A stretch of 64,000 nt of DNA from Escherichia coli (GTDB taxonomy: Bacteria > Pseudomonadota > Gammaproteobacteria > Enterobacterales > Enterobacteriaceae): assembly GCF_011045215.1 (NCBI RefSeq), contig NZ_CP049201.1; one strand, 5' to 3'. Positions within the stretch are counted from its first letter, which is position 1; each line of letters opens with the position of its first letter. Shown piece after piece: positions 30,001 to 36,000 of this stretch. Position numbers: made by a program.

Positions 30001-33000
30001 AATAGATAAGGAGTGTATTCCCTCTCATAATGAAAGTGTAATATTCTCACTAGTAAAAGATCTTTACAGTGTGTTTATGAGTATGAACAATGGGGACCAT
30101 GATGGTTTTGTATTTTTTGAAGATAACAGACTTCTTTTTAAAATTAGTGATGAAAAAGTCAGGGTAATTCTGGAGGCTCTCGAAATCGACTTTAAGATGC
30201 TTAAAGGTGATGTTAACGATGATACTCTTACTCGCTATATTAAAGAGCTTAGTGCCAAAGCGGGGGCCGTTGGTGTTCCTCTCGCAGCAGTTTACCTTTC
30301 AGGTTCAGTTGTCGGGATGTCAGCTGCAGGATTAACATCCGGACTGGCAACGCTTGGTCTGGGAGGGCTTTTAGGGTTCTCCAGTATGGCTACAGGGATT
30401 GGCGTTGCTGTGTTAATTGGTGTGGGAACCTATAAAGGTATCAGACAATTAACAGGGGCGAATGGGCTGGATAAAATCAAGCGGCGGGAGATGATGCTGA
30501 ATGAAGTTATCAAACTAACGCAATTAACTATTTCTTATTTAATTGAGGATATTAATTTTATCGTTATCAAATTAAATGAGTGTATTAATAATATTGAACA
30601 GCAGGAAGAAAAATTTAAAAAACTTATGGAGAAACAGAGAAAAACCATATTGGTTATGCGGGAGCTTCGGAAAAAAGGTGATGAATTACAAGGGGAAAAA
30701 TTCAAACTAAAATGCCCACTTGAGCCAGACAATGACAGACTTAAATTTCTGACCAGAGACGTAACAAAAAAACAAATTTATACTTTTATTTTGTCTTTTT
30801 ATGAAGAAAAAGACATTGAAGTTAAAAATGATGAAAAAACTGTAATCAGGAAAAGACTTGTTCGTAAGCCGGGTATCTCAACGTTAGAACTGGAAAAACT
30901 TTCTGATGCATTTGAGGCTATTGGATATTTCAATGCAATTGATGTCGCTAAAAGTAAATTACATGGAGTATTTTCATAATGTCTGAACGAGATGAACAGG
31001 CTGCAGCGCTACTGGTGCAGAAAGATCTACTATCCCGATCTGGAAATAAGCTGAATGAGCTAAATACCATCCTGAATACGTTGAAAGAAAAACAAGAATC
31101 CAGTGATAATCAGATTGATCATGCTCTGGCTGAGCTGGATATGATAATTGATGAGCAATGGTGCGATAAATGGGAAAACAGTGGTTCCGATATTGCTCTG
31201 GGTTTTGAGCATGAGGAAGAACAATCTGAGGTCAGTTCTGTTGTTGCCCCAGTTACATTACTTGATACATTCGATTTCAATGCAGAAATGAGCTGGTTTC
31301 AGTATCAACAGTCTGTTGAACGGTATGCAATTCATAACAACATTGATTTGGATGTTGAACCGTTCAGGACATTAATGTCTCCGCTACAGAGAACTGAATT
31401 AGAAAAGCGTATCAGGAATGAATTTACTGTCAGGAATGCTCAATGTGACAGATATGATTATCTCATTGCAGTTACTTGCGGTATCATTGGGGGAATTATA
31501 GATGCATGCTTTGTTGGATTACCCGGTAAAGGGAAACTTACACAATTTTCTGATAGTGCGGTAAATTCAGCCGTTGAGAAATTTGCATCGGTATGTGGGT
31601 GGAAAGGAGCCAAAGAAGGTAGTGATCCAACAAAAAGCGCAATTGGTTTTCTGGAAGGAAAATTTAAAATTAATTATGATCAGGCAACAACTTCAGGAAA
31701 AAATGGAACTGGTGGTGCAGTCAATAATCTTTCCCTAAAAAATCATCATTTAAAGAGTCTTGGACATTCTCCCGACCTTTGCGGTTTGTTCTTTTCAATT
31801 CTTAACCAGTTTACCAGTACATCTACTTTTGTTTCAAATGGTCGGATTATTACCATTGAAACTAAGGATTTCGAGTTGAAAGGTGGTAACTTCATCGCAA
31901 AACTCTATTGTGGTTTTGCCAACTGGTTGGGGCATTTATTCTCTGATATGGCTGGTTCTTCTGGCGCATCAGGGCGAGGGGCGGGAATACCGATCCCTTT
32001 TTACAATTTACTCCTGTTGATTGATGTCGGTGAATCTGGTCAACACAAACAATCTTTTGCCACCATAGCCACACAAGTTTTTGAAAAAGGCTATGATTTC
32101 AGGCACGGTATTGCACTGGCTATTCCTGTGCTCATTACTGAATTATTAACCCGGTTAATGTGGACATGTAAACAATGGTTATATCATAAAAAGCCCTTGA
32201 CTGAGTGTGTACCTGTAGAAAATGATCCGGAGTTAAGAAGAATGTTACTGATTGCTCATGGAACGCTCTGTATGATTGATGCTGGTGATGCAGCATTTAG
32301 ATCCGGTGGTAATTTGATGACGTTTCTGCTGAGAACTAATATGGTCGGCTGGGTTCGGTTTGGTATGCTTGCGTTAAAAGAAGTTCATGGGTTATACAAC
32401 ACAGGTCATATTGATGTTGATTCGGTTGATAAATATCTGGATACTGAATTAGAAAGATTATCATCTCATCTATACTAATCCCTCTGACAGGCCATTCTGC
32501 TATAAAGACATGGGATGAATGATAATGATTGTCGGCGCTTTTTTCACGAAGGAAAGGGTAGTGACAGCCAGGTTTACAATGTACCGCTGCATATGTGGCG
32601 GTTGACTATATCGGCTTCACGGTTTTCAGGATAAAGCATTAATCAGTAGTCCTGTATTAAGTATATCTGCCTCAGGCGAACATACTGTATTTTATAAATT
32701 TTTATGAAAAACAACCTTCTTTTTATATTCCTGTCGCGGATTAATAATGATAAAAGTATTGTGTTATCTGTGATTGTTTTTACGCTTGCTAATATGATTG
32801 TATCATCAGGTGCACATCTGATTTATCGGGTATTATTCTTTACCCTGACTCTCCTTATTATCAAGAAGATAAAGTTATTTACGCTGCGTTTGATTCTTGC
32901 TTTTCCGTTCACGTTACTGACTGCTGCAGATATCAGTATCAGCCTGTATTCATGGTGTACATTTGGCACAACATTTAATGATGGTTTTGCAATCAGTATC

Positions 33001-36000
33001 CTTCAGACAGATCCTGATGAAGTAATAAGAATGTTCAGGATGTATGTTGTTTATGTTATCGCATTTATTATCCTCTTTTTATTGTTCTTCTGTTCAGCAA
33101 TAAATAAAACGTCCTCATTGCCATCGGAAAAGGTCACGGTAATTACATTTTTATTGTTAATTACAGTAACGTTATATTCTTCCTTTCAGTTTGCGTTGAA
33201 GAAACAGTATCAAATAAATGAAGTTGATCCTTACATAGTCGCTTCCCGGTTTGCCACATATACCCCTTTCTTTAATCTGAACTATTTTGCACTGGCCGCA
33301 AAGGAGCATCAGAGATTAATGACGATTGCTGATACCATACCTCACTACGAGCTGATGATTACAGACAATAATATTGATGAATTTGTACTGATCATCGGTG
33401 AATCAGCAAGGACTGATAACATGTCCATTTACGGGTATTCGCGCCCAACCACACCAGAACTTCAGAAACAGAAATCACGGCTGAAACTGTTCACTCAGGC
33501 AATCAGTGGCGCACCTTACACTGCGCTGGCTGTTCCTCTGGCGTTGTCTGCCGATAGTGTACTGCATCATGATATCCGTAATTACCCTGATAACATTATC
33601 AACATGGCGAATCAGGCAGGGTTCGATACCTGGTGGCTCAGTGCGCAGTCCGCTTTCCGGCAGAACGGAACGGCTGTGGCCAGTATCGCCATACGGGCCA
33701 GAAACAGAATTTATGTCAGAGGCTATGATGAGTTACTGCTCCCACATCTGGCTGAAGCACTGAACAGTAATCCGGGAAGAAGGAAACTGATTGTTCTGCA
33801 TCTGACGGGCAGCCATGAACCAGTCTGCAGTAACTGGCCCAGAGATAAAGCCGTGTTTAAACCACTGGATACAGAAGAAGTCTGCTACGATAATTCCATT
33901 CATTATACCGACAGTTTGTTGGGGCGGGTTTTCGCCATGCTGGAAACGCGTCAGGCATCAGTCATGTATTTTTCAGATCACGGTCTGGAGTATGACCCGA
34001 CAAAAGAACATGCCTATCTTCATGGCGGAATAAAACCCAGCCAGCAGGCTTATCATGTTCCGATGTTTATCTGGTACAGCCCGGCTCTGGGAGAGCATGT
34101 CGATCGCCAGACGGTGAACAGCGTTTTTTCTACTGCGTATAATGATTATCTGATTAATGTATGGATGGGCGTAACCAGACCAGCTCAACCGAAAACGCCG
34201 GAGGAGGTGATCACCCGCTGGCAGGGGAAATCAAATGTTATTGATGCAAACCATAACGTGTTTGACTACAACGTATTACGAAAGAACTTTAATGAACCCC
34301 TGGAATAATTCGTTAAAGTAATTTACGACTCTATTCTTTTTTAAAGGAAACTTTCAGAAAATAACCCCAGGGCGATAACCTGGGGAAGGGGGTTTAGTGT
34401 GTTATTACTGGTGGATAAATTATTACTTGTTTGAAAAATACACTAATGCAATATCTACTGATGCTGGATGCTTGAGTGTTTCATTCCTGCCGCTGAAAAC
34501 GGCAATATCCAGGGCCAGACATATTCACCGTTAATATTTCTGCATTTCTGTACAATTTCCTCAGAAAGTGTCTCATCAATTCTTTCCCACAACAACTTCT
34601 GCTGTCTTAAAATGCTTTCGCATATTTCGAAATCATCTTCCTGCATCAGCATTTCGGCGCATTTAATGATTTCTGCCCGTTCATGCAGCACAGAGGAATG
34701 GTTATAGAGCCAGTTTACAAACAGCAATGCTTCCGGATATTGTCCCCATAATGGTGAGTATGTTGCATAATAATCTTCGGCAGTATCCGGCCCGGCAGAA
34801 TAGTTATGCCATACAGCAAGAGGAAATGGATGCAGATTTCCGCACAGTATTTCTGCGATGTAAGTATTTGCCGTAAAGCCACGACGAAATGCAGTTGCAG
34901 CTTTTTCCAGTTCCCCATTAAGAAAATGCAGAAGGCCGAGTTCATACCAGTAAGGTGAAAATTCATCAGCGTACTCATTCAGTACACGGAAAGCTCGCTC
35001 ATGATCACCTGTTCGTAACAGTTCTGAACCCAACAACCAGCGGGTACCCTGATTATCTTCAGGATTGTATGCCAGTATTTTCTCAATGAGCATGATGGCA
35101 TCCTGATGACGTTGTAAATGTACATTTGCCAGGATTGCTGCATAAAGCGCGCGCAGATAAGGCCGGTTTTCGGGATGCATCCAGATGATTTCACCACTGA
35201 AACTTTCCGGGATGAGACGATTACCTGCCGCCAGTCCTTTAAGAGCGGCGTTCAGTGCCTTACGCGGGGCATTCTGCTCCAGAAATGCATATGCCAGATG
35301 AGCGTGTATATCAATAAAGTCAGGCTCCTGTTGAGCAAGGCGTCTGAGTTTGTTGATGTAACTCGCCTCACTGATTTCACCAGTATCGTATGTATCAAGC
35401 AGTTTTTCAAACTCCCCCGGTAATGGGCAAAACCAGGTATCCGGAAATACGAAACGCCCTTGGTTATCGTTTACTTTAAAGCGTAATTTGTCGTTCATTT
35501 TCTGAGCCTGTAAAACGGATTGGACACAATCTGAAAAGCATAAAAGTCGTGATGTTGTGTATCAAGTCTTGTTTTTGTCCGGGATGAATGTTGTTTACAA
35601 TATCATCGACAGTGTTTTTATATGAGAATGAAAATTTATCTTTATCTGCATTCCAATGTATTGTGAATTGTCAGCTGAAACAGCATATTAATCGATTTTT
35701 TGATAATGGTGCTGAAATAACGACAGGATGATGATTGAAACTACTGGTATCAAAATTGTTAGCGGTCCATAATGGTGTGATGTTTTGAGATTGTTTATAG
35801 ATGCAATATTAAATATTTTGTCAAAAAACAAAAAATACCTAAAAATAAAGCATAAAAACAAAATTCCTCCGGACCAGGAGGCCGGAGGAGAATTTGTGGA
35901 TTGAGAGAAAATATCAGGACAAGTGCTCTTAACCCTGACTCTCTTGCTTAGAAAGCGAATCAATATAATCTGCGTACCACTGCATCATTTCACGGCGACC

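What the first reader, a model, noticed from the sequence alone, without database searches (positions are those of the whole stretch)
32704..34308. Island-borne phosphoethanolamine transferase (EptA/YhbX-like)
The protein has the catalytic-domain motifs of lipid A/core PEtN transferases (GESARTDN, HxxGSHxP, YDNS, SDHG) and an N-terminal multi-TM anchor. It is encoded in AT-rich accessory DNA beside the uncharacterised gene pair. Horizontally acquired enzymes of this superfamily include MCR-type polymyxin-resistance determinants, so the substrate and any effect on polymyxin susceptibility are worth knowing.
Basis: partly seen in the sequence, partly recalled or inferred. Interest (0 to 1): 0.45.

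Follow-up and report, generated by a model that had tools for sequence, protein, structure and literature searches.

The report
Island copy of YhbX phosphoethanolamine transferase
The gene is real and encodes an intact membrane enzyme of the phosphoethanolamine-transferase family, but it is a second copy of the uncharacterised E. coli YhbX type, already annotated in about 9% of complete E. coli genomes, and not a relative of the MCR colistin-resistance enzymes.

Summary
The ORF at 32704..34308 (+, 534 aa) is real. Every catalytic residue of Neisseria EptA/MCR-1 is conserved: E233, T273, H366, H371, D425, H426, H440.

It is 66% identical to E. coli K-12 YhbX but only 25-30% identical in local BLASTP alignments (21-22% over the full-length alignment) to EptA, EptB, EptC and OpgE. 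It groups with YhbX in 100% of bootstrap trees. It scores far below every curated EptA, EptB, CptA and MCR cut-off.

It is the counterpart, 92-93% identical, of a gene already annotated as "phosphoethanolamine transferase" in 511 of 5426 complete E. coli genomes. That gene always lies next to a P4-type integrase at selC, pheU or pheV, and probably corresponds to "orf5" of the ETEC H10407 Tia island.

It is a backbone gene of that island family. Together with a tia-like outer-membrane-protein gene it frames a slot that holds different anti-phage systems: Bunzi here, LeoABC/Eleos in H10407.

The acceptor substrate is unknown, as it is for YhbX itself. A polymyxin-resistance role is unlikely but untested.

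Verdict: correct annotation, ordinary gene, low novelty.

The parts
32704..34308 (+). Complete gene for a 534-aa YhbX-family phosphoethanolamine (PEtN) transferase. It is the island-borne second copy of YhbX.
   Evidence: ORF. Pfam Sulfatase E 4e-50. 66% identical to K-12 YhbX. 92-93% identical to the selC, pheU and pheV island copies. AF2 model pLDDT 94.
32704..33327 (+). N-terminal membrane domain (residues 1-208): five predicted transmembrane helices plus the short periplasmic bridging helices. It contains T102 and E106, which align with the phosphatidylethanolamine-site residues T110 and E114 of Neisseria EptA.
   Evidence: Hydropathy. Helices H17-33, H36-54, H59-87, H104-133 and H142-170 in the model. 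Alignment to 5fgn. E106 is invariant in the YhbX-clade alignment and at least 90% conserved across 98 family members.
33376..34125 (+). Periplasmic catalytic domain of the alkaline-phosphatase/sulfatase fold (residues 225-474).
   Evidence: PF00884 at residues 227-474. Foldseek best matches are the EcEptC, NmEptA and MCR-1 catalytic domains, target-normalised TM 0.72-0.78.
33400..33402 (+). Codon for Glu233, a zinc ligand equivalent to NmEptA Glu240, inside the GESARTDN motif.
   Evidence: Alignment to 5fgn. Invariant in 98 sequences.
33520..33522 (+). Codon for Thr273, the predicted catalytic nucleophile, equivalent to NmEptA Thr280 and MCR-1 Thr285.
   Evidence: Alignment to 5fgn. At least 90% conserved in 98 sequences and invariant in the YhbX clade.
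33799..33816 (+). Codons for His366 to His371 (HLTGSH), equivalent to NmEptA His378 and His383.
   Evidence: alignment. H371 invariant and H366 at least 90% conserved.
33976..34023 (+). Codons for Asp425-His426 (the SDHG motif, zinc ligands equivalent to NmEptA Asp452/His453) through His440 (equivalent to His465).
   Evidence: alignment. Conservation.
28302..29048 (+). Context: tia-like outer-membrane beta-barrel protein gene. It forms the other fixed border of the variable slot.
   Evidence: 90-92% identical to Tia of ETEC H10407 and strain F2_407. Pfam OMP_b-brl. Annotation.
29291..32478 (+). Context: BnzA (29291..30979; its start may be at 29312) and BnzB (30979..32478). This is the Bunzi anti-phage system, the cargo in the slot.
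   Evidence: PADLOC BnzA E 3e-188 and BnzB E 2.5e-200. Bunzi is described in bioRxiv 10.1101/2022.05.11.491447.
34455..35498 (-). Context: TPR-repeat protein of unknown function, conserved in the selC and pheU versions of the island.
   Evidence: Pfam TPR families. 91-93% identical to the H10407 and F2_407 copies.
35929..37119 (-). Context: P4-type tyrosine integrase of the island.
   Evidence: Pfam Arm-DNA-bind_3, Phage_int_M and Phage_integrase. 99% identical to the H10407 selC integrase.
37418..37512 (-). Context: tRNA-Sec (selC), the integration site. Core genes yicJ and yicI follow.
   Evidence: ARAGORN. The flank is 99.5% identical to E. coli yicJ-yicI-yicH.

Best explanation
The gene encodes a catalytically competent inner-membrane PEtN transferase of the YhbX clade. 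It is carried as a fixed backbone gene of a P4-integrase genomic island at selC, the family of the ETEC H10407 Tia island.

By homology, five transmembrane helices anchor the protein and its sulfatase-fold domain faces the periplasm. Zinc is held by E233, T273, D425 and H426. Thr273 attacks the phosphodiester of phosphatidylethanolamine, whose head group is positioned by E106, T102, S316 and R319. This releases diacylglycerol and forms a PEtN-Thr intermediate. The PEtN is then passed to a periplasm-exposed acceptor.

Shown here: the gene, the fold, the residues, the clade, purifying selection and the island context. Inferred: the donor, the chemistry and the topology. Unknown: the acceptor. 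My best guess for the acceptor is an envelope glycan other than the lipid A phosphates. [quoted passage not shown]
For: ORF and motifs. PF00884 E 4e-50. Alignment to solved NmEptA 5fgn over residues 43-471, with all catalytic and PE-site residues matched. These residues are conserved across 12 and across 98 homologues. The AF2 model has pLDDT 94 and pTM 0.92. It matches full-length NmEptA (524 columns, TM 0.61) and full-length MCR-1 (550 columns, TM 0.65).

Identity to YhbX is 66%, against at most 30% to other K-12 paralogues. The NJ tree and 200 bootstraps give 100% support for the group of island clade, YhbX and Leminorella. dN/dS is 0.13-0.23 among six intact island alleles.

The same gene sits next to int and tRNA at selC (H10407, F2_407), pheV and pheU, regardless of which cargo fills the adjacent slot. 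It is present in 511 of 5426 complete E. coli genomes, and 453 of them carry at least 80% of its length.

[quoted passage not shown] PMC6174562 notes putative YjgX or YhbX PEtN transferases at every selC, pheU and pheV insertion it analysed.
Against: There is no biochemical or genetic evidence for activity, donor or acceptor, either here or for any YhbX-clade member. No clear Shine-Dalgarno sequence or strong promoter was seen upstream. The gene is AT-rich (42.6% GC), so it may be silenced under laboratory conditions. The statement that the acceptor is not lipid A rests only on phylogenetic distance and on sub-threshold family scores. Campylobacter EptC shows that one enzyme of this family can have several acceptors (PMC10525099).
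Confidence: 0.75

Rival explanations
1. It is an uncatalogued MCR-like determinant: a horizontally acquired lipid A PEtN transferase that lowers polymyxin susceptibility.
For: It has the same superfamily, architecture and catalytic residues as EptA and MCR-1. It lies on horizontally acquired DNA.
Against: MCR-1 to MCR-13 models score 37-72 bits against cut-offs of 1100-1250, and EptA scores 98 against 660. Identity to EptA is 28% in the local BLASTP alignment and 21% over the full-length alignment. PF08019 scores 14.3 against a cut-off of 22.3, whereas EptA scores 151 and EptB 56. It clusters with YhbX at 100% bootstrap. No PmrA or PhoP box lies upstream. It is chromosomal in all 559 places in the complete-genome collection, and only one 62-kb non-mobilizable plasmid record carries it. 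From my own knowledge: roughly one in ten E. coli carries it, yet it has never been flagged in colistin-resistance surveys.
Confidence: 0.06
2. Its biological role is surface remodelling that travels with defence cargo. PEtN decoration of LPS core, O-antigen or another surface glycan would mask phage receptors or change sensitivity to serum or antimicrobial peptides. This would explain why the gene is fixed beside a swap-in slot for anti-phage systems.
For: It borders a slot that holds Bunzi, Eleos/LeoCBA, or WYL + PDC-M09A + PDC-M40B in different strains. The other border is an outer-membrane protein gene, tia. The gene is under purifying selection. From my own knowledge: receptor-modifying LPS enzymes on mobile elements are well known, for example gtr operons and the Shigella O-antigen PEtN transferase Opt.
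Against: The evidence is purely contextual. No phage genome in the collection carries a YhbX-clade gene. PADLOC has no model that matches it. Proximity to the integrase may simply reflect island backbone history.
Confidence: 0.15
3. It is a functional component of the neighbouring Bunzi system, which would then have three genes.
For: It is on the same strand as bnzB and 226 bp downstream of it. The same order, tia-bnzA-bnzB-sulfatase, occurs in three independent assemblies.
Against: Bunzi loci in Vibrio vulnificus and Citrobacter koseri (BnzB 69% and 56% identical) have no sulfatase-domain neighbour. The PEtN transferase gene occurs with entirely different cargo in other islands. Bunzi is described as a two-gene system.
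Confidence: 0.02
4. It is a decaying or catalytically dead passenger, for example a sensor-like pseudo-enzyme such as PbgA/YejM, which shares the fold.
For: The AT-rich gene has weak expression signals. PbgA/YejM structures appear among the fold matches.
Against: All catalytic residues are retained. dN/dS is 0.13-0.23 and there are no stops or frameshifts in six alleles. 453 of 511 genomes hold at least 80% of the gene. PbgA matches are much weaker, with TM 0.42 and rmsd 16-18.
Confidence: 0.04

Closest known systems
E. coli K-12 YhbX (b3173), a putative PEtN transferase/hydrolase of unknown acceptor
   Same: 66% identical over 511 of 534 residues, with the same length and architecture. Both show only the Sulfatase Pfam domain above threshold. 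Both are AT-rich (43.1% against 42.6% GC) and both lie beside a tRNA gene. They form a clade with 100% bootstrap support.
   Different: The locus differs: YhbX lies between argG and leuU in the core genome, whereas this gene lies in a selC island next to an integrase. About a third of residues differ. It is therefore a second, horizontally moving copy, not the orthologue.
Island copies in E. coli: ETEC H10407 Tia-island gene ETEC_RS21210 / WP_001087989.1 (probably the 'orf5' of the tia locus in PMC4159319, an equation I inferred from gene order), and the pheU and pheV island copies
   Same: 92-93% amino-acid identity. The position relative to integrase, TPR gene, tRNA and tia is the same. The H10407 and F2_407 copies are also at selC.
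   Different: The first 200 nt are only 72-80% identical, giving a mosaic N-terminus that is shared with a Logan-assembly allele, P0002. No complete E. coli genome has an allele above 95% nt identity. The adjacent cargo is Bunzi instead of LeoCBA.
EptC/CptA (E. coli; adds PEtN to heptose-I phosphate of the LPS core)
   Same: It is the best solved-structure sequence hit (5zzu, E 1.3e-23) and the best fold hit (6a82). It has the same catalytic residues.
   Different: 25% identity. The CptA models score 128-142 bits against cut-offs of 404-900.
Neisseria EptA (LptA) and MCR-1, lipid A PEtN transferases
   Same: The full-length architecture superposes (TM 0.61-0.65 over 524-550 columns). Thr nucleophile, zinc ligands and PE-site Glu are conserved.
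   Different: 18-21% identity in the structural alignment. It is far below all curated family cut-offs, the PF08019 N-terminal domain is sub-threshold, and it sits on a separate branch of the tree.
YjgX (pseudogene next to intB at leuX in K-12), the other integrase-adjacent PEtN transferase type
   Same: It is also a PEtN-transferase-family gene sitting just inside a P4-type integrase island. It is named together with YhbX-like genes in PMC6174562.
   Different: Only about 30% identical over residues 225-456, so it belongs to a different subfamily.

Membership tests
PEtN transferase superfamily (EptA-like, alkaline-phosphatase fold) | Periplasmic sulfatase/alkaline-phosphatase-fold catalytic domain | tested here: met
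   PF00884 171 bits against a cut-off of 25. Foldseek probability 1.00 to the EptC, EptA and MCR-1 catalytic domains.
PEtN transferase superfamily (EptA-like, alkaline-phosphatase fold) | N-terminal domain of five transmembrane helices preceding the catalytic domain | tested here: met
   Five hydrophobic segments. Helices in the AF2 model. Full-length superposition on 5fgn and 9nww.
PEtN transferase superfamily (EptA-like, alkaline-phosphatase fold) | Thr nucleophile plus Glu/Asp/His zinc ligands and the conserved His residues | tested here: met
   E233, T273, H366, H371, D425, H426 and H440 align with NmEptA E240, T280, H378, H383, D452, H453 and H465. They are conserved.
PEtN transferase superfamily (EptA-like, alkaline-phosphatase fold) | Residues that bind the phosphatidylethanolamine donor (NmEptA T110, E114, S325, K328; listed in PMC10525099) | tested here: met
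   T102, E106 and S316 are identical and K328 is replaced by R319. N106 is replaced by S98.
PEtN transferase superfamily (EptA-like, alkaline-phosphatase fold) | Demonstrated transfer of PEtN from phosphatidylethanolamine | not testable with these tools
   Needs biochemistry.
YhbX clade | Closest characterised or named relative is YhbX, and the two are monophyletic | tested here: met
   66% identity. 100% of 200 NJ bootstraps. The nearest representative at the 50%-identity cluster level is a YhbX-like 541-aa protein, 65% identical.
YhbX clade | Orthologous position argG-yhbX-leuU-secG | tested here: not met
   The gene lies in a selC island. No ArgG, SecG or GlmM homologue is nearby. It is therefore a paralogue or xenologue, not the orthologue.
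EptA / MCR lipid A PEtN transferases | Score above the curated NCBIfam family cut-off | tested here: not met
   EptA scores 97.7 against 660 and 131 against 561. The MCR models listed (MCR-1 to -10, -12, -13) score 37-72 against 1075-1250. The generic lipid A transferase domain scores 160 against 500.
EptA / MCR lipid A PEtN transferases | EptA_B_N (PF08019) N-terminal domain | tested here: not met
   14.3 bits against a cut-off of 22.3. K-12 EptA scores 151 and EptB 56.
EptA / MCR lipid A PEtN transferases | Raises the polymyxin MIC and adds PEtN to lipid A phosphates | not testable with these tools
   Needs MIC measurement and lipid A mass spectrometry.
EptB, EptC/CptA, OpgE | Curated family score or close identity | tested here: not met
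   EptB 108 against 493. CptA 142 against 404 and 128 against 900. Local BLASTP identity 25-30%.
Bunzi defence system (as a third component) | Conserved adjacency to bnzAB in unrelated genomes | tested here: not met
   Absent next to bnzAB in V. vulnificus and C. koseri. No PADLOC model matches the protein.

The most novel reading that the evidence does not exclude
The island-borne YhbX copy may decorate an exposed envelope glycan, such as LPS core, O-antigen or another surface polymer, with PEtN and so change susceptibility to phages, serum or cationic peptides. Together with Tia it would form the fixed 'envelope' frame of a slot into which membrane-associated anti-phage systems (Bunzi, Eleos, PDC-M09/M40) are swapped. 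This would give the long-orphan YhbX family its first acceptor and a role in defence islands.
Probability: 0.12. Interest if true: 0.5.

Novelty: already known. Interest (0 to 1): 0.18.

Why it matters
It matters little as a discovery. The gene family is already annotated in hundreds of E. coli genomes, and it has been noted in the literature as a regular feature of selC, pheU and pheV islands. The useful outcomes are three. First, the MCR-like worry can be set aside on sequence grounds. Second, the YhbX clade, including a mobile copy present in about 9% of complete E. coli genomes, still has no known acceptor; that is a small but real gap in envelope biochemistry. Third, the gene marks one border of a variable slot for anti-phage systems, which could help in locating new cargo.

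Tried and rejected
(1) YjgX family. The K-12 yjgX pseudogene beside intB is only about 30% identical over residues 225-456, so this gene is not of the YjgX type.

(2) A donor genus for the island copy. One scan of species-representative genomes found nothing closer than Leminorella (61%) and Hafnia (50%). The only 93% hit was an Enterobacteriaceae MAG with the same island layout. None of the other-genus homologues sits beside argG, secG or glmM, and few sit beside an integrase. E. coli YhbX itself was not listed in that scan, for reasons I could not determine.

(3) PmrA and PhoP boxes upstream. There was only one 2-mismatch AT-rich match, overlapping the start codon, which I treat as chance.

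(4) An echo of the K-12 ompX-opgE adjacency. Tia shows no meaningful similarity to OmpX, so I dropped this idea.

(5) The PEtN gene as a Bunzi component. Rejected.

(6) Plasmid or phage carriage. Essentially none. The 65% 'plasmid' hits include megabase-sized, apparently chromosomal records, consistent with core yhbX.

(7) Literature. Fleckenstein 2000 (PMC97486), which describes the tia-locus ORFs, is not held. No paper in the library assigns a function to YhbX. A search for 'EptD' found nothing.

(8) The island's left end. The selC-derived direct repeat TTCGACTCCTGTGATC occurs only inside selC, so the other end of the island lies outside the window.

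
Full report

Yes. The ORF listing gives one ORF at exactly 32704..34308 on the + strand, with an ATG start and 534 aa.
- GESARTDN at residues 232-239
- HLTGSHEP at residues 366-373
- YDNS at residues 395-398
- SDHG at residues 424-427

Pfam Sulfatase (PF00884) matches residues 227-474 with E 4e-50. A Kyte-Doolittle scan finds five hydrophobic stretches at about residues 19-37, 41-54, 58-82, 112-133 and 145-163.

The gene is 42.6% GC and the block 28100-37400 is 40.7% GC, against 52.4% for the core flank. A P4-type tyrosine integrase (35929..37119, -) and tRNA-Sec (37418..37512, -) lie just beyond it. 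They are followed by yicJ-yicI-yicH, which are 99.5% identical to E. coli. So this is an E. coli-type chromosome with an island at selC. The selC-derived repeat that would mark the island's far end is not in the window.

**2. What kind of enzyme is it?**

phmmer against solved structures aligns residues 43-471 with full-length Neisseria meningitidis EptA (5fgn, E 2.8e-23). It aligns the catalytic domain with E. coli EptC (5zzu, E 1.3e-23). Counting along that printed alignment gives these equivalences to NmEptA:

| This protein | NmEptA | Role |
|---|---|---|
| E233 | E240 | zinc ligand |
| T273 | T280 | nucleophile |
| H366, H371 | H378, H383 | conserved His |
| D425, H426 | D452, H453 | zinc ligands |
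| H440 | H465 | conserved His |
| T102, E106, S316, R319 | T110, E114, S325, K328 | phosphatidylethanolamine site |

The review PMC10525099 lists the last group as the phosphatidylethanolamine site. These positions are invariant in a 12-sequence YhbX-clade alignment, and invariant or at least 90% conserved in a 98-sequence family alignment.

An AlphaFold2 model built on that alignment is confident (pLDDT 94, pTM 0.92). It superposes over its whole length on NmEptA (524 columns, TM 0.61) and on the cryo-EM structure of MCR-1 (550 columns, TM 0.65). The catalytic domain matches EcEptC, NmEptA and MCR-1 at target-normalised TM 0.72-0.78.

The protein therefore has the architecture and the complete catalytic apparatus of a membrane PEtN transferase. 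The chemistry I describe is inferred from the established mechanism of EptA and MCR-1 and was not shown here: Thr273 attacks phosphatidylethanolamine, a covalent PEtN-enzyme intermediate forms, and PEtN is transferred to a periplasmic acceptor.

**3. Which subfamily?**

I fetched the five K-12 paralogues from NC_000913.3 and compared them by BLASTP:

| K-12 protein | Identity |
|---|---|
| YhbX | 66% over 511 residues |
| OpgE | 30% |
| EptB | 30% |
| EptA | 28% |
| EptC | 25% |

The yjgX pseudogene beside intB is about 30% identical.

An exhaustive HMMER search of 1.84 billion cluster representatives puts a YhbX-like 541-aa protein first (65% identity, 789 bits). The next representative is only 43% identical.

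A neighbour-joining tree used 63 sequences. A 24-sequence subset was bootstrapped 200 times. The island copies form one clade in 100% of replicates. That clade joins K-12 YhbX plus Leminorella in 100% of replicates. The group is well separated from OpgE, EptC, EptB and EptA.

NCBIfam places the protein below every curated cut-off:
- generic lipid A PEtN transferase: 160 against 500
- CptA: 142 against 404
- EptA: 98 against 660
- EptB: 108 against 493
- MCR families: 37-72 against 1075-1250

The EptA/EptB N-terminal domain PF08019 scores 151 bits in EptA and 56 in EptB, but only 14.3 here against a cut-off of 22.3. It is undetectable in YhbX. No PmrA- or PhoP-type box precedes the gene.

**4. 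Is it already known?**

Yes. Megablast finds the gene at 90-95% nucleotide identity in 511 of 5426 complete E. coli genomes, always on the chromosome. In 453 of those genomes at least 80% of the gene is present. PGAP annotates it as "phosphoethanolamine transferase" or "sulfatase-like hydrolase/transferase".

Every annotated locus I inspected, plus one genome-bin contig with the same layout, shows the same order: tRNA, P4-type integrase, (TPR gene), this gene, a variable block, and a tia-like outer-membrane protein gene.
- At selC: ETEC H10407 and strain F2_407_2_2.
- At pheV: strain SWHEFF_58.
- At pheU: strain A31.
- In an Enterobacteriaceae genome bin.

In H10407 this is the selC-proximal end of the classical Tia pathogenicity island. 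Michie et al. (PMC4159319) call the gene downstream of leoA "orf5" and remark that it is not conserved with leoABC elsewhere. Equating that orf5 with this gene is my inference from gene order. Saile et al. (PMC6174562) state that all the selC, pheU and pheV insertions they analysed contained putative PEtN transferases YjgX or YhbX.

No function is known. [quoted passage not shown]

**5. Is the gene maintained?**

Six island alleles are all intact, and pairwise dN/dS is 0.13-0.23. Synonymous divergence among them is high (0.11-0.26), so this is an old and diverse allele pool.

The window's allele is the most divergent. No complete E. coli genome has it above 95% nucleotide identity. Its first 200 nt are only 72-80% identical to the others. 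A Logan-assembly allele, P0002, shares that N-terminus, which points to recombination.

The start at 32704 gives an N-terminus of the same length as K-12 YhbX. The 557-aa PGAP models of the orthologues start 23 codons further upstream. In the window that extension is closed by a stop codon.

K-12 yhbX is itself AT-rich (43.1% GC) and lies beside tRNA leuU. Low GC is therefore a property of the clade and not by itself proof of recent arrival.

**6. Context: a slot for anti-phage systems.**

Together these form the Bunzi system of Millman et al.. The same slot holds different cargo in other strains:
- H10407 holds LeoC, LeoB and LeoA, which match PADLOC's Leo models. From my own knowledge these constitute the Eleos system.
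- The pheU, pheV and genome-bin versions hold a WYL regulator plus PDC-M09A and PDC-M40B candidates.

The tia-like gene and the PEtN transferase gene are the constant borders. This Bunzi DNA has no megablast match in the 5426 complete E. coli genomes. Its BnzB is 99% identical to proteins on three Logan contigs with the same order, tia-bnzA-bnzB-sulfatase. Otherwise its nearest relatives are 69-72% identical and are mostly from Vibrio and Aeromonas.

Bunzi loci in Vibrio vulnificus and Citrobacter koseri have no sulfatase-domain neighbour. The PEtN transferase is therefore island backbone and not part of Bunzi.

**7. Mobility compared with mcr.**

tblastn against 72,556 plasmid records finds the island type once, in CP057032.1, a 62-kb non-mobilizable circular record (91% identity). 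The 65% hits include megabase-sized, apparently chromosomal records filed as plasmids and are consistent with core yhbX. No phage record carries a YhbX-clade gene. This is unlike the plasmid-borne mcr genes.

**8. Explanation and rivals.**

- Best reading (0.75): an active YhbX-family PEtN transferase that is a backbone gene of the Tia-type integrase island. The donor is phosphatidylethanolamine. The acceptor is unknown and is probably an envelope glycan other than lipid A.
- Surface remodelling linked to the defence slot (0.15): contextual evidence only.
- MCR-like polymyxin resistance (0.06): argued against by every sequence test, but not experimentally excluded.
- Dead or decaying passenger (0.04): argued against by residue conservation and dN/dS.
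- Third Bunzi gene (0.02): refuted by comparative context.

From my own knowledge, in K-12 the lipid A, Kdo and heptose PEtN decorations are each lost on deleting eptA, eptB or eptC respectively. That leaves no known LPS position for YhbX under standard conditions, which fits an as-yet unidentified acceptor or a silent gene.

**9. Verdict.**

The gene is already known and annotated. Interest is low (0.18). The residual value is that the YhbX clade still lacks an acceptor, and that the gene marks a variable defence slot.

Noticed in passing
window 29291-32478 (+): The 'uncharacterised gene pair' is a Bunzi anti-phage system, BnzA and BnzB (PADLOC E 3e-188 and 2.5e-200). Its DNA has no megablast match in 5426 complete E. 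coli genomes. Apart from three Logan contigs at 99%, the nearest BnzB relatives are 69-72% identical and mostly from Vibrio and Aeromonas.
   Followed up: partly
window 28302-34308; L009 6144-13343; L001 3477-10605; L011 2414-9605: The stretch between the tia-like gene and the PEtN transferase gene is a swap-in slot. It holds Bunzi here, LeoCBA (Eleos) in ETEC H10407 and F2_407, and a WYL regulator plus PDC-M09A plus PDC-M40B in the pheU, pheV and MAG versions.
   Followed up: partly
window 29291-30979 (BnzA residues about 320-454): BnzA has weak PADLOC matches (E about 1e-3) to PDC-M09A and to LeoBC over the same region. The three alternative cargoes of the slot may therefore share a membrane-associated domain.
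   Followed up: no
window 32704-32900: The first 200 nt of the gene are only 72-80% identical to other island alleles, while the rest is mostly 87-100% identical per 100-nt window. A Logan allele (P0002) shares this N-terminus, so the allele is a recombinant mosaic.
   Followed up: partly
window 32635-32703; L001 8932, L002 8903, L009 11670: PGAP annotates the orthologues as 557 aa, starting 23 codons upstream. In the window that extension is blocked by a stop codon. The 534-aa start matches the YhbX N-terminus, so the database models are probably over-extended.
   Followed up: partly
window 1-28000: The rest of the island carries a Pap/Pix-like chaperone-usher fimbrial operon, a polysaccharide deacetylase with GT4 glycosyltransferase and VirK, DUF4056, an IbrA/IbrB-like pair (PAPS reductase-like) and IS66 remnants. 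About 63% of window 3200-28100 is 99% identical to plasmid A of bovine E. coli C5 (CP010123.1).
   Followed up: partly
window 34455-35498 (-): A 347-aa TPR protein is conserved (91-93%) with the selC and pheU versions of the island. Its only other match is a sub-threshold one to the T3SS chaperone SctY (31.5 bits against a cut-off of 70). Its function is unknown.
   Followed up: no
L007 7989-9614 (K-12 yhbX): Core yhbX is itself AT-rich (43.1% GC, against 52.6% and 54.4% for its neighbours argG and glmM) and lies next to tRNA leuU. This suggests the whole YhbX clade is of foreign origin or is H-NS-type DNA.
   Followed up: no
L092 (CP057032.1, 62,375-bp circular 'plasmid'): This is the only genuine plasmid record with the island-type gene. 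It is non-mobilizable and carries island-like genes (MFS, GGDEF, TPR, AraC). It may be an excised circular island or an assembly artefact.
   Followed up: no
window 37426-37441 only: The selC-derived direct repeat TTCGACTCCTGTGATC, reported as an island border in PMC6174562, occurs only inside selC. The island therefore runs past the left end of the window and is at least 37 kb long.
   Followed up: yes
L056 (E. coli E69), L051 (E. albertii), P0138: A further PEtN-transferase clade about 30% identical to the query, represented in an E. coli and an E. albertii genome, groups inside the broad YhbX-like radiation in the tree. It may be the intact YjgX type, but I did not check this.
   Followed up: no
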